From an uncultured Clostridia bacterium (GTDB lineage Bacteria; Bacillota; Clostridia; TANB77; CAG-508): a stretch of 64,000 nucleotides of DNA. The stretch is taken from NCBI GenBank assembly GCA_934182605.1, contig CAKPRQ010000001.1, forward strand, positions 153,913 through 217,912, given 5' to 3'. This document shows positions 24,085-24,605 of the stretch, piece by piece (the first letter of the stretch is position 1; each line of letters begins with the position of its first letter). The position numbers and the translations under genes were made by a program. The notes beneath the pieces were generated by a model. It was not told where the DNA came from and searched no databases. It saw nothing but the letters and a program-made list of their open reading frames with translations.

Positions 24085-24137
24085 AAAAAACATTATTCCC
24101 ACCCTTGACTTATGAATTCTCATTTGTCAAGGGTGGG
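24085..24137 (-). terminator. intrinsic terminator of cassette 3
   Basis: 12-bp stem CCCACCCTTGAC / GTCAAGGGTGGG with a 16-nt loop. On the minus strand it is followed by AATAATGTTTTTT. Confidence 0.7.
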
Positions 24138-24156
24138 ATGGTAAAAACTCCCTAAC

Positions 24157-24534
24157 TCACTCTATAAGGGAAAATGCGAAACCTTCAATAAGGTCTTCAC
24201 CTTCCGCAAAGATGACCATGTCCATCCGAAGCCCGTTTCGTACCTTGATTTGGGCTTCGAGTTCCAGCCAAAGTTCTTCCGGCAAAGCCTCAAAAGGAAT
24301 CACTATAACAGGATAGCGACTCACTTCTGCCTTCTGCGTAAGCCGCTTCAATTCGGAAGCGACCTTTTCATAGACATCTTCACCAGTGAAGATGCCAGTG
24401 AACTTCACCTCTTCGCTTTCCTTGGCCTTTTCTATCCATGTTGGTGCCTCGCTATTATACGAAGCTTCAACAGGGTTGGCAAAAGTCAGCAGAAAAGCGA
24501 ACAGACAAAACGAAAAAGTAAGAAGAGACTTCAT
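24157..24534 (-). CDS. hypothetical secreted 125-aa protein in compositionally foreign cassette 3
   Basis: The start MKSLLTFSFCLFAFLLTFANPVEA (Sec signal, VEA|S) lies 5 nt after AGGAGG. Two 60-nt lines were hand-counted at 47% and 50% GC. It uses CTG, AAG and two in-frame CGG codons. Confidence 0.55.
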   Translation of the reverse strand: MKSLLTFSFCLFAFLLTFANPVEASYNSEAPTWIEKAKESEEVKFTGIFTGEDVYEKVASELKRLTQKAEVSRYPVIVIPFEALPEELWLELEAQIKVRNGLRMDMVIFAEGEDLIEGFAFSLIE

Positions 24535-24576
24535 CTTTCCCTCCTGGGAAGTTAAAATGTTAAACAAACTATATTT

Positions 24577-24605
24577 ATTATATCATATTTTTTTCAATTT
24601 GTCTA
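24577..24605 (-). promoter_or_regulatory. sigma-A-like promoter TAGACA-17-TATAAT (TG-extended) for cassette 3
   Basis: The reverse complement reads TAGACAaattgaaaaaaatatgaTATAAT, counted directly. Confidence 0.5.

What the first reader, a model, noticed from the sequence alone, without database searches (positions are those of the whole stretch)
24085..24605. Compositionally foreign single-gene cassette 3 (secreted 125-aa orphan) upstream of the atp operon
It has a TAGACA-17-TATAAT (TG-extended) promoter, an AGGAGG RBS and a Sec signal peptide (MKSLLTFSFCLFAFLLTFANPVEA|S). The mature acidic domain of about 100 aa is encoded at about 47-50% GC. A 12-bp GC-rich stem forms the terminator. The ORF uses CTG, AAG and two in-frame CGG codons (AAG CGG CTT; CTT CGG ATG). 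I did not otherwise find that codon in frame in host genes. This is the strongest codon-usage outlier in the window.
Basis: partly seen in the sequence, partly recalled or inferred. Interest (0 to 1): 0.65.

Follow-up and report, generated by a model that had tools for sequence, protein, structure and literature searches.

The report
Strain-variable small secreted protein gene
This is a real gene for a small exported acidic protein from a previously undescribed family in one group of uncultured gut bacteria; near-identical strains carry very different versions at the same spot, and every version uses codons unlike the rest of the genome.

Summary
Window 24086-24605 (- strand) is a self-contained transcription unit with these parts:
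- a TAGACA-17-TGaTATAAT promoter
- an AGGAGG ribosome-binding site
- a 125-aa ORF with a signal peptide
- a -28 kcal/mol terminator hairpin

The ORF is the strongest codon-usage outlier in the window: GC3 is 0.47 against about 0.13 for host genes, and the codon score lies 14 SD from 49 host ORFs.

"Orphan" and "foreign insertion" are only partly right. The gene belongs to a tiny undescribed family: 14 clusters at E <= 0.001 among 1.84 billion representatives, with no Pfam, PDB or Foldseek match. Every traced member (11 of the 14 clusters) lies in low-GC gut-metagenome contigs, mostly in this same slot between a DUF1540 gene and atpB.

Strains with nearly identical atp operons (flank dS about 0.04) carry either a 49%-identical allele or a two-gene array in the slot. 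These are therefore old alleles swapped by recombination. Close alleles give dN/dS 0.18, so the ORF codes for protein.

All members share three traits: a private promoter motif, avoidance of the host's TTA codon, and (in 9 of 14) unusually structured mRNAs. The odd composition is thus a family trait, not a fresh-import scar. Function is unknown. My best guess is a non-enzymatic extracellular protein involved in strain-specific interactions.

The parts
24600..24605 (-). -35 hexamer TAGACA of the cassette's own promoter
   Evidence: Read directly and found by the consensus scan. T[AG]GAC[AT] is conserved in front of every family member.
24577..24585 (-). Extended -10 element TGaTATAAT, 17-nt spacer from the -35
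   Evidence: The whole motif TRGACA-N14-TGN-TATAAT occurs once in the 64-kb window (0 expected). In the fetched loci it occurs at one or two places per locus that carries family genes; where coordinates were compared, it lies just upstream of a family gene.
24535..24570 (-). Inferred 5' UTR. AGGAGG RBS at 24545-24540. A small predicted hairpin, UUCCC/GGGAA, pairs with the 3' G of AGGAGG.
   Evidence: Sequence and MFE fold. A similar CTTCC...GGAAG arrangement precedes several paralogs. The transcription start is inferred, not measured.
24463..24534 (-). Signal peptide, codons 1-24: MKSLLTFSFCLFAFLLTFANPVEA. Predicted SPase I cut after VEA.
   Evidence: Read by eye: n-region K2, a 16-residue hydrophobic core, V at -3 and A at -1, no lipobox Cys. 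E23 and A24 are invariant in the 8-sequence alignment, and similar small-residue cut sites occur in all members. No SignalP run was possible.
24160..24462 (-). Mature domain: 101 aa, 11.6 kDa, pI 4.5, no Cys. Predicted fold is a short N-terminal strand, then alpha-beta-alpha and a C-terminal beta-hairpin.
   Evidence: AF2 with a 17-sequence alignment gave pLDDT 85.9 and pTM 0.77. pI. dN/dS against the 97% allele is 0.18.
24157..24159 (-). Stop codon TGA
24086..24138 (-). Intrinsic terminator: 13-bp GC-rich stem (24138-24097) plus U6 (24091-24086)
   Evidence: dG -28.4 kcal/mol, z = -6.0. A homologous hairpin with altered stem bases follows the alternative allele in L027.
24136..24570 (-). Replaceable (strain-variable) segment: 5' UTR plus CDS, ending at the start of the terminator
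   Evidence: Homology to the 98.3%-identical strain L027 stops at 24136, to the 96.9%-identical L030 at 24095, and to sister species at 23999. Upstream, only the promoter core aligns.
23957..23985 (-). Context, not part of the cassette: the atp operon's own consensus promoter, TTGACA-17-TATAAT
   Evidence: 12 of 12 positions. It shows that the atp operon does not depend on read-through from the cassette.

Best explanation
SHOWN. Window 24086-24605 (-) is a monocistronic unit made of a promoter, a ribosome-binding site, a 125-codon ORF and a terminator. The ORF is a genuine protein-coding gene under purifying selection.

Its product has an N-terminal signal peptide with a conserved small-residue cut site, and a 101-aa acidic domain (pI 4.5). 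That domain is confidently predicted to fold as a compact beta-alpha-beta-alpha-beta-beta unit. Its sequence and predicted fold match nothing described.

It belongs to a very small family (113-145 aa, nearly all acidic). Every traced member lies in 25-33% GC gut-metagenome contigs, and most sit between a DUF1540 gene and atpB.

That slot is hypervariable. Genomes whose atp operons are 97-98% identical to the window carry one of three contents there: this gene, a 49%-identical allele, or a tandem pair. Sister species carry a three-gene array. Between alleles the synonymous sites are saturated, while flank dS is about 0.04. Within one allele type the gene diverges no faster than its flanks.

INFERRED.
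- The alleles are old and are swapped by homologous recombination. The conserved promoter core and the downstream region probably serve as homology arms. They did not arise by fast local evolution or by one recent foreign insertion.
- The non-host codon usage is limited to the coding region and is shared by the whole family: Lys AAG 8 of 8, Leu TTA 0 of 14, Arg all CGN. It is therefore probably maintained, for example through mRNA structure or stability or through control of translation, and is not a decaying import scar.
- The protein is exported by Sec, cut after VEA24 and released. It has no anchor, lipobox or wall-binding motif.
- The conserved positions are hydrophobic core residues and no polar catalytic residue is conserved. 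It is therefore most likely a non-enzymatic extracellular binding or shielding protein whose strain-specific surface is kept diverse by balancing selection. Possible partners are phage, host antibody or antimicrobials, or rival strains. This functional step is the weakest part, at roughly 0.35 on its own.
For: Anatomy.

Coding: 6 synonymous against 4 non-synonymous differences from the 97% allele give dN/dS 0.18. Divergence of the CDS (2.6%) equals that of its flanks (about 3%). The reading frame, signal peptide and motifs are conserved across 17 sequences.

Family size and novelty:
- 14 clusters at E <= 0.001 among 1.84 billion representatives.
- 1, 7 and 6 hits in the three searches of 5.8 billion clusters.
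- No Pfam, NCBIfam, PADLOC or PHROG family.
- No PDB sequence hit.
- Foldseek with the pLDDT-86 model gave nothing at E <= 0.001 against PDB or BFVD.

Slot and synteny.

Allelic replacement:
- L027 is 98.3% identical over 5.9 kb of the atp operon (atpB and atpA dS 0.040-0.047, rounded aa identity 1.00). Yet its slot gene is 49% identical, with dN 0.415 and saturated dS.
- L030 is 96.9% identical but carries two genes in the slot.

Promoter: the motif TRGACA-N14-TGN-TATAAT is unique in the window and otherwise private to family genes. Window 24562-24622 is 85% identical to the region upstream of paralog A in the sister MAG.

Composition:
- GC3 is 0.29-0.58 in the family members measured, against 0.09-0.24 in neighbouring genes.
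- TTA is used for 16 of 186 Leu in the family, against about 75% in the host.
- GC enrichment stops at the CDS borders; the promoter and 5' UTR are 24% GC.

mRNA structure:
- z is -6.0 for this mRNA, -7.0 and -3.8 for two relatives, and -0.03 for a trxB control.
- Against synonymous-codon shuffles, z is -4.55 here, and 9 of 14 members score <= -2.2.
- Forty host gene segments average -0.33, with a minimum of -2.35.
Against:
- The signal peptide was judged by eye only.
- The allele comparison rests on metagenome contigs, many of them short and ending in a repeat. The upstream recombination boundary is therefore poorly defined, and whether two contigs belong to the same species is inferred from the atp operon alone.
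- The AF2 model rests on only 17 sequences.
- The mRNA-structure excess shrinks with conservative local shuffles (z -1.2 to -3.6). Two host genes, atpF and atpH, also score -3.4 and -2.6. The predicted hairpins are not at conserved positions.
- Two unrelated GC-rich cassettes in the same window share the odd codon usage, and one of them was checked and seen only in contigs of this strain. This fits ordinary horizontal transfer.
- Nothing ties the protein to any partner or phenotype.
Confidence: 0.7

Rival explanations
1. One reading: a recently acquired foreign gene. The coding sequence, or the whole cassette, came by horizontal transfer from an organism or mobile element of about 45-50% GC. 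Its composition is an import scar that has not yet decayed. The family members in sister species would be older or independent imports.
For: - The codon usage is like that of a mid-GC genome and lies 14 SD from host genes.
- Two other unrelated small cassettes in the window have the same codon usage. One of them was checked and seen only in contigs of this strain.
- GC3 varies among family members from 0.29 to 0.58. This could reflect different ages since import.
- The slot is clearly a place where DNA is exchanged.
Against: - No donor was found. All 14 clusters from an exhaustive search of 1.84 billion representatives, and all contexts recovered, lie in 25-33% GC contigs. There are no phage, plasmid or IMG/VR hits.
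- The promoter is AT-rich, family-specific and 85% identical to that of the positional ortholog in the sister species.
- No integrase, tRNA or direct repeats flank the cassette.
- Alleles with saturated dS all still avoid TTA. A single old import should have decayed towards host usage, and repeated imports would each have to land precisely between the same promoter and terminator.
Confidence: 0.2
2. The codon usage is the point. The non-host codons (AAG, CTN and CGN in place of AAA, TTA and AGA) and the resulting GC-rich, highly folded mRNA are selected. They might give a long-lived mRNA in an AU-targeting RNase background. They might slow translation of a short preprotein so that it can be targeted to Sec. 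Or they might make expression depend on minor tRNAs, the mirror image of bldA/TTA control in Streptomyces. This rivals horizontal transfer as the explanation of the composition. It is compatible with the best explanation for what the gene is.
For: - The enrichment is confined to the CDS and is family-wide despite saturated synonymous divergence.
- mRNA folding z-scores are -6.0, -7.0 and -3.8, against -0.03 for a control.
- Synonymous-shuffle z is -4.55, against a host mean of -0.33 with SD 1.04.
- Lys is AAG in 8 of 8 codons and Leu is TTA in 0 of 14.
Against: - Hairpin positions are not conserved between alleles.
- Local shuffles weaken the signal.
- Some family members show no excess structure (z -0.7 to -1.0).
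- Glu, Phe and Tyr still use mostly A/T-ending codons.
- The non-secreted cassettes share the codon usage, which speaks against the Sec-targeting variant.
- No tRNA genes lie in the window, so the minor-tRNA variant could not be checked.
Confidence: 0.35
3. An extracytoplasmic immunity or decoy protein. The small acidic exported domain binds and neutralises a cationic, envelope-acting toxin, bacteriocin, lysin or host antimicrobial peptide. Allele diversity would track toxin diversity, as it does in orphan-immunity arrays.
For: - The mature proteins are acidic across the family (pI 4.05-4.9 in 13 of 14).
- The proteins are small, no catalytic residues are conserved, tandem arrays of divergent paralogs occur, and content is strain-specific.
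- The arrangement resembles rAID-1 arrays, which combine skewed GC with repetitive intergenic sequence (bioRxiv 10.1101/471110, read).
Against: - No toxin, secretion-system or recombinase gene lies near any of the loci.
- All cassettes are one protein family, not a mix of immunity folds.
- There is no match to PADLOC or Pfam immunity families.
- Most Gram-positive immunity proteins against envelope toxins are membrane-anchored. This one has a cleavable signal peptide.
Confidence: 0.12
4. Not a protein gene at all: the GC-rich, strongly folding segment is a structured non-coding RNA, and the ORF arises by chance in GC-rich sequence.
For: - The fold z-score is very negative.
- GC-rich islands in AT-rich genomes are often RNA genes (own knowledge).
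- Long ORFs also appear on the opposite strand.
Against: - There is no Rfam match, even at E <= 10.
- A strong RBS sits at the right distance from the ATG.
- dN/dS is 0.18.
- The frame, the signal peptide and the hydrophobic-core pattern are conserved down to 25% identity, with no frame-disrupting gaps.
- AF2 gives a confident fold.
- Hairpin positions are not conserved.
Confidence: 0.03
5. An ATP-synthase accessory gene, the AtpI/AtpZ-like gene that usually precedes atpB.
For: The position immediately upstream of atpB is conserved across the genus.
Against: - The gene has its own promoter and a strong terminator, and the atp operon has its own consensus promoter.
- There is no Pfam match to AtpI.
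- It has one cleavable hydrophobic segment, not several membrane helices.
- Copy number and sequence vary wildly between strains with identical atp genes.
- Other family members lie upstream of glyA or elsewhere.
Confidence: 0.02

Closest known systems
Polymorphic replacement loci in Firmicutes, such as pherotype or antigen loci like comC/comQXP or agr types (own knowledge, not tested here)
   Same: Deeply diverged alleles sit at one chromosomal position in otherwise near-identical genomes. They are exchanged through conserved flanks. The products are exported.
   Different: Here the product is a folded protein of about 100 aa, not a short peptide. No receptor, kinase or processing gene is linked. 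Copy number in the slot varies from 1 to 3. The alleles also carry a non-host codon usage, which is not a feature of those loci.
rAID-1 orphan-immunity arrays of gut Bacteroidales (bioRxiv 10.1101/471110; see also PMC12247911)
   Same: Arrays of small, fast-diverging accessory genes in gut bacteria, with GC content skewed from the host and a repeated intergenic sequence before each gene.
   Different: rAID-1 is defined by a XerD-like recombinase, many unrelated immunity families and lower-than-host GC. Here there is no recombinase and only one protein family. GC is higher than the host, arrays hold at most 3 genes, the host is Gram-positive-type, and the gene has a cleavable signal peptide.
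Classical horizontally acquired genomic islet (atypical composition, Lawrence-Ochman amelioration framework; own knowledge)
   Same: Sharp compositional and codon-usage discontinuity over a single gene, with strain-specific content.
   Different: There are no mobility genes, no tRNA or att site, and no identifiable donor. Homologs occupy the same slot in all syntenic relatives. The promoter is native-like. The atypical codon usage persists across alleles with saturated synonymous divergence.
AtpI/AtpZ, the usual small gene upstream of atpB
   Same: Position directly 5' of atpB and small size.
   Different: It is a separate transcription unit. It is not a polytopic membrane protein, has no Pfam ATP-synt_I match, and is hypervariable.

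Membership tests
Sec/SPase I-cleaved secreted protein | A positively charged n-region, a hydrophobic h-region of at least 7-15 residues, and small neutral residues at -3 and -1 before the cut | tested here: met
   MK / SLLTFSFCLFAFLLTF / ANPVEA|S. E23 and A24 are invariant in A2, and analogous xEA, xxA or xxG sites occur in all 14 members. This was judged by inspection only; no SignalP was available.
Sec/SPase I-cleaved secreted protein | Demonstrated export and cleavage | not testable with these tools
   No proteome or secretome data.
Bacterial lipoprotein (SPase II) | Lipobox [LVI][ASTVI][GAS]C at the cut site | tested here: not met
   The only Cys in the window protein (C10) lies in the middle of the h-region. 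P0010 alone has a lipobox-like FSCNGC.
Horizontally acquired islet | Atypical base composition and codon usage | tested here: met
   GC3 is 0.47 against a host median of about 0.13. The codon score has z = -14.2.
Horizontally acquired islet | Absent from the same site in close relatives (empty site) | tested here: not met
   Every syntenic relative has 1-3 family members in the slot.
Horizontally acquired islet | Mobility signatures (integrase, tRNA, flanking direct repeats) or an identifiable donor | tested here: not met
   No such ORFs within +/-3 kb and no tRNA in the window. No homolog was found outside low-GC contigs, phages or plasmids. A MITE-like repeat borders the slot in other strains but not here.
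Sigma-A promoter with extended -10 | TTGACA-like -35, 16-18 nt spacer, TGnTATAAT | tested here: met
   TAGACA-17-TGaTATAAT. This is a consensus match only; activity was not measured.
Intrinsic (Rho-independent) terminator | GC-rich hairpin followed by a U tract | tested here: met
   13-bp stem, dG -28.4, z = -6.0, then AUAAUGUUUUUU. The U run starts 5 nt after the stem and the loop is long, so the simple scanner missed it.
Any curated protein family (Pfam, NCBIfam, PADLOC, PHROGs) or solved structure | Score above the family threshold, or a significant sequence or fold match | tested here: not met
   Best Pfam E-value 0.074 and best NCBIfam 0.057. Profile against PDB, E >= 0.98. Foldseek best E-value 0.06 against PDB and 0.008 against BFVD, where the hits are uncharacterized proteins with TM <= 0.54. 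PADLOC and PHROGs gave only scattered single-member noise.
Structured non-coding RNA (Rfam) | Covariance-model match at or near the gathering score | tested here: not met
   No hit at gathering in the window. The best local hits reach 14-25 bits against thresholds of 74-195.
rAID-1 / integron-like cassette array | Adjacent tyrosine recombinase and attC-like repeat per cassette | tested here: not met
   No recombinase is among the called genes of the family loci listed. The repeated element before each gene is a promoter.
AtpI (ATP synthase protein I) | Small polytopic membrane protein, Pfam ATP-synt_I, co-transcribed with atpB | tested here: not met
   No Pfam hit. It has a single cleavable hydrophobic segment. 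It has its own terminator, and atp has a separate promoter.

The most novel reading that the evidence does not exclude
This may be a gene family kept in a foreign codon usage on purpose. The avoidance of TTA, AAA and AGA, the highly folded mRNAs and the private TAGACA-17-TGnTATAAT promoter would be kept by selection through saturating sequence divergence. They would form an expression programme gated by mRNA stability or by minor tRNAs, an AT-rich-genome mirror image of bldA/TTA control. That programme would drive strain-specific secreted recognition proteins held as ancient balanced alleles. The two other GC-rich mini-cassettes in the window would belong to the same regulatory class.
Probability: 0.15. 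Interest if true: 0.8.

Novelty: new variant of a known kind. Interest (0 to 1): 0.55.

Why it matters
The gene defines an undescribed family of small exported proteins with a confidently predicted fold that matches nothing solved. It sits in a locus where near-identical strains of an uncultured human-gut bacterium differ completely. Such loci usually mark the molecules through which strains meet phages, the host or each other, so this is a concrete handle on strain-level ecology in a lineage with no cultured member.

The second point is more general. The standard reading of a compositional outlier is recent horizontal transfer. Here the atypical codon usage persists across alleles that have diverged to saturation inside low-GC genomes, and it stops at the borders of the coding region. 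If this is selection and not an import scar, it offers a clean natural test case for why a cell would keep a few genes in non-host codons. It would also caution against calling HGT from composition alone.

Tried and rejected
- Single-sequence searches (Pfam, NCBIfam, PDB, word-indexed protein search) returned only a 97% variant. What opened the family was tblastn against the loci fetched through AtpB.
- Rfam at gathering and at E <= 10 gave nothing.
- Foldseek against PDB gave nothing significant with either model. BFVD returned only uncharacterized proteins.
- PADLOC and PHROGs gave noise.
- tblastn against phages and plasmids, and a pattern scan of IMG/VR, gave no match.
- The 17-sequence alignment was too diverse for the pattern-based locus search. 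The 3-sequence version found only one more 99% copy in JGI metagenomes.
- More distant relatives (AtpB 64-71% identical, L011-L020) have a different gene order upstream of atpB and no family member.
- GC-biased gene conversion at a recombination hot spot: considered and judged unlikely, because the enrichment ends at the CDS borders while the promoter and UTR inside the exchanged segment are 24% GC.
- Targeted hypermutation or fast local evolution: rejected, because the 97% allele differs no more than its flanks and has dN/dS 0.18.
- Integron-like capture through the hairpin repeat: rejected, because the repeat is dispersed in ordinary intergenic regions and no integrase is present.
- The internal promoter-like site at 24482-24454 was ignored, because the next ATG downstream is out of frame.
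Full report
**1. What is in the sequence**

The finding lies on the minus strand. Reading 24650 to 24050 gives these features:
- a -35 TAGACA at 24605-24600, a 17-nt spacer, and TGaTATAAT at 24585-24577
- AGGAGG at 24545-24540
- ATG at 24534
- a 125-codon ORF ending in TGA at 24159-24157
- a hairpin at 24138-24097, followed by AUAAUGUUUUUU

The consensus scan lists the promoter as 11 of 12 with the TG extension. The hairpin folds at -28.4 kcal/mol, z = -6.0.

The atp operon just downstream has its own perfect TTGACA-17-TATAAT at 23985-23957. 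The unit is therefore bracketed and independent.

GC is 45.5% for the ORF: 40% in the signal peptide and 47% in the mature part. The promoter and UTR are 24% GC, the 3' flank 28%, and the window about 27%.

**2. Is it an outlier beyond chance?**

I compared 49 host ORFs of at least 100 aa (16,934 codons) with this ORF.
- Host GC3 is 0.09-0.24. This ORF has 0.47.
- A per-codon likelihood under host synonymous usage puts it 14.2 SD below the host mean.
- All 8 Lys are AAG (host 14%). None of 14 Leu is TTA. All 4 Arg are CGN (host about 78% AGA).
- CGG is not strictly unique to it. Host genes use it twice in frame.

Two other small units are nearly as extreme: 11278-11508 (+), 76 aa, z = -12.7, and 14835-15263 (+), 142 aa, z = -12.3. 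No other ORF comes close.

**3. It is a real protein gene**

Independent contigs carry a 97% variant (P0001; L007-L009).
- The CDS differs at 6 synonymous and 4 non-synonymous sites, giving dN/dS 0.18.
- Its 2.6% divergence equals that of the flanks, about 3%.

Rfam finds nothing. The frame, signal peptide and hydrophobic pattern are conserved across relatives down to about 25% identity.

**4. It is not an orphan**

The single-sequence search gave only the 97% variant. I then fetched genomes through the neighbouring AtpB and ran tblastn. The sister MAG (AtpB 94% identical, L010) has two distant homologs at the same place.

Between its DUF1540 gene and atpB, L010 carries three ORFs:
- a 108-aa ORF with an N-terminal hydrophobic stretch
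- a 137-aa secreted protein (P0002)
- a 114-aa secreted protein (P0004)

A profile search added P0003 to P0007. An exhaustive HMM search of 1.84 billion representatives found 14 clusters at E <= 0.001, none with annotation. All but one (P0011, 1,990 aa, matched only as short stretches) are 113-145 aa. A third search added one more cluster.

The 14 members examined have a signal peptide with a small-residue cut site. Mature pI is 4.05-4.9 in 13 of 14.

Shared motifs are TGE(E/D)LY in helix 1, a P-x-I-V-I strand, E-x-W-x-E-L-E in helix 2, and a C-terminal F-x-F-x-L strand. W89 is the only invariant residue. The conserved positions are core hydrophobics, and no polar catalytic residue is conserved.

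AF2 on the mature domain with 17 sequences gives pLDDT 85.9 and pTM 0.77. The predicted order is a short N-terminal strand, a helix, a strand, a helix and a C-terminal beta-hairpin. Foldseek finds nothing at E <= 0.001 in PDB or BFVD. Pfam, NCBIfam, PADLOC, PHROGs and PDB profiles are empty.

**5. Where the family lives**

Every recovered context is a 25-33% GC contig from gut or other metagenomes. Most are in the DUF1540-to-atpB slot. Some lie upstream of glyA, and one lies after a comEA-like gene.

Relatives with AtpB at 64-71% identity have a different gene order and no member. No copy was found in phages, plasmids or IMG/VR.

**6. The slot is hypervariable between near-identical genomes**

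- L027 matches the window at 98.3% over 5.9 kb of the atp operon. Its atpB and atpA have dS 0.040-0.047 and rounded aa identity 1.00. Homology ends at window 24136, inside the terminator. Upstream, L027 has P0008: 135 aa, 49% identical, dN 0.415, dS saturated.
- L030 matches at 96.9%, up to window 24095, and then carries a 159-aa plus a 114-aa member.
- L028, L029 and L035 show further states.

Within one allele type the gene evolves no faster than its flanks. The large differences are therefore old alleles moved by recombination, not local hypermutation.

On the upstream side only the promoter core aligns. Window 24562-24622 is 85% identical to the region before P0002 in L010. This makes the window gene the positional ortholog of paralog A, even though the two proteins are only 33% identical.

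**7. A private promoter**

An alignment of 11 upstream regions shows invariant T-x-GACA and TG-x-TATAAT.

The pattern TRGACA-N14-TGN-TATAAT occurs once in the 64-kb window, with 0 expected. In the 41 fetched loci it occurs at one or two places per locus that carries family genes. Where I compared coordinates, it lies just upstream of a family gene. P0013 has the one-mismatch form TAGACT.

The promoter therefore travels with the family. Together with the downstream region, it is the obvious candidate for the homology arms of exchange. That last step is inference.

**8. The composition puzzle**

All measured members have raised GC3 (0.29-0.58), against 0.09-0.24 for their neighbours. They avoid TTA (16 of 186 Leu, against about 75% in the host), and most prefer AAG and avoid AGA.

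Three facts argue against a simple import scar:
- No donor turned up in databases of up to 15 billion proteins.
- The enrichment stops at the CDS borders.
- Alleles with saturated synonymous divergence still share the codon usage. A single old import should by now have drifted to host usage. Repeated imports would each have to land exactly between the same promoter and terminator.

These facts do not exclude an unsampled donor pool. The two unrelated GC-rich cassettes in the window are more simply read as HGT. I therefore keep that rival at 0.2.

One lead is that the mRNAs fold unusually well.
- Against dinucleotide shuffles, z is -6.0 here, -7.0 for P0013 and -3.8 for P0002, against -0.03 for trxB.
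- Against synonymous-codon shuffles, z is -4.55 here, and 9 of 14 members score <= -2.2. Forty host segments average -0.33 (SD 1.04, minimum -2.35).
- The signal weakens with conservative local shuffles (z -1.2 to -3.6). Hairpins are not positionally conserved, and atpF and atpH also score low.

I therefore treat selection for stable or structured mRNA, or for slow or minor-tRNA-dependent translation, as a plausible but unproven cause.

**9. How it most likely works**

- Shown: the anatomy of the unit, that it codes for protein, the family, the slot variability, and the codon usage.
- Inferred: sigma-A transcription from about 24570 to about 24090; Sec export; SPase I cleavage after VEA24; and release of an 11.6-kDa acidic domain with no anchor.
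- Inferred more weakly: a non-enzymatic extracellular binding or shielding role. The variable surface would be kept diverse by balancing selection from phage, host factors or rival strains.

An immunity or decoy role against cationic envelope toxins is a specific version of this, which I rate at 0.12. An AtpI-like role and a non-coding RNA are essentially excluded.

**10. Comparison with known systems**

- It works like a polymorphic replacement locus, such as pherotype or antigen loci (own knowledge).
- It superficially resembles the rAID-1 orphan-immunity arrays of Bacteroidales, which combine skewed GC with repetitive intergenic sequence (bioRxiv 10.1101/471110). But it lacks their defining recombinase and their mix of protein families.
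- It fails two of three criteria for a classical acquired islet: there is no empty site in relatives, and there are no mobility marks or donor.

**11. Verdict**

It is a new protein family in a strain-variable slot with an unexplained, family-wide non-host codon usage. Interest is moderate (0.55), because the function is unknown and no expression data could be obtained.

Noticed in passing
window 26600-26780 (-); cores at 5275-5297 (-), 17408-17430 (+), 26679-26701 (-), 30603-30625 (+), 43998-44020 (-): A dispersed intergenic repeat with core GGTGACACAATCCGGGTCTTGAC has 5 copies in 64 kb (0 expected). The full copy folds into a perfect hairpin of about 24 bp nested in a longer one (dG -58, z = -6.6). 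There is no Rfam hit. In other strains (L027-L030) contigs break at this repeat directly upstream of the variable slot, and in L010 copies sit on either side of family gene A. It is either MITE-like or a small RNA.
   Followed up: partly
window 14835-15263 (+): A second GC-rich single-gene cassette: 142 aa, no signal peptide, a CPLCG...C motif, a TTGATT-17-TGaTACAAT promoter and an AAGCCGGCAAAATTTGCCGGCTT terminator. GC3 is 0.44 and the codon score z = -12.3. No Pfam hit. It was found only in contigs of this same strain.
   Followed up: partly
window 11278-11508 (+): A third GC-rich mini-cassette: a 76-aa ORF with a perfect TTGACA-17-TATAAT promoter and a GGTGGCGGAACATTCCGCCACC terminator. GC3 is 0.51 and the codon score z = -12.7. 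No Pfam hit. The 129-aa ORF called on the opposite strand (11146-11535) is probably spurious.
   Followed up: partly
L010 2169-2495; L021 6909-7235; L025 4397-4723: Sister species carry an extra 108-aa ORF with an N-terminal hydrophobic stretch (probable membrane helix) at the head of the slot array. It is 74% identical between L010 and L021, has GC3 of about 0.27, and has no Pfam family. It is absent from the window's strain.
   Followed up: partly
L021 15298-15795: In a related genome a ToxN-family toxin gene sits between atpC and the RNase R gene. The window has only a copy of the hairpin repeat at that position (17408-17430). This may be a second variable slot.
   Followed up: no
window 24546-24536 (-) and the same position in L010, L021 and L030: A short CTTCC(C/T)...GGGAA(G) hairpin places the Shine-Dalgarno sequence in or next to its loop in the window gene and in several B-type paralogs. 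It may modulate translation or stabilise the 5' end.
   Followed up: no
window 24333-24339 (-), codons AAG CGG: The CDS contains GAAGCGG, which I recall (own knowledge, untested) as the Staphylococcus aureus Chi sequence; it includes AGCGG, which I recall as the Bacillus subtilis Chi. It is probably coincidental, but the locus is recombination-active.
   Followed up: no
L031, L036-L038 (upstream of glyA); L033 5001-5438: Family members also occupy a second slot directly upstream of glyA, and a third place after a comEA-like gene. They have the same promoter type and raised GC3. Whether the window's genome has a member at glyA is unknown, because glyA lies outside the window.
   Followed up: partly
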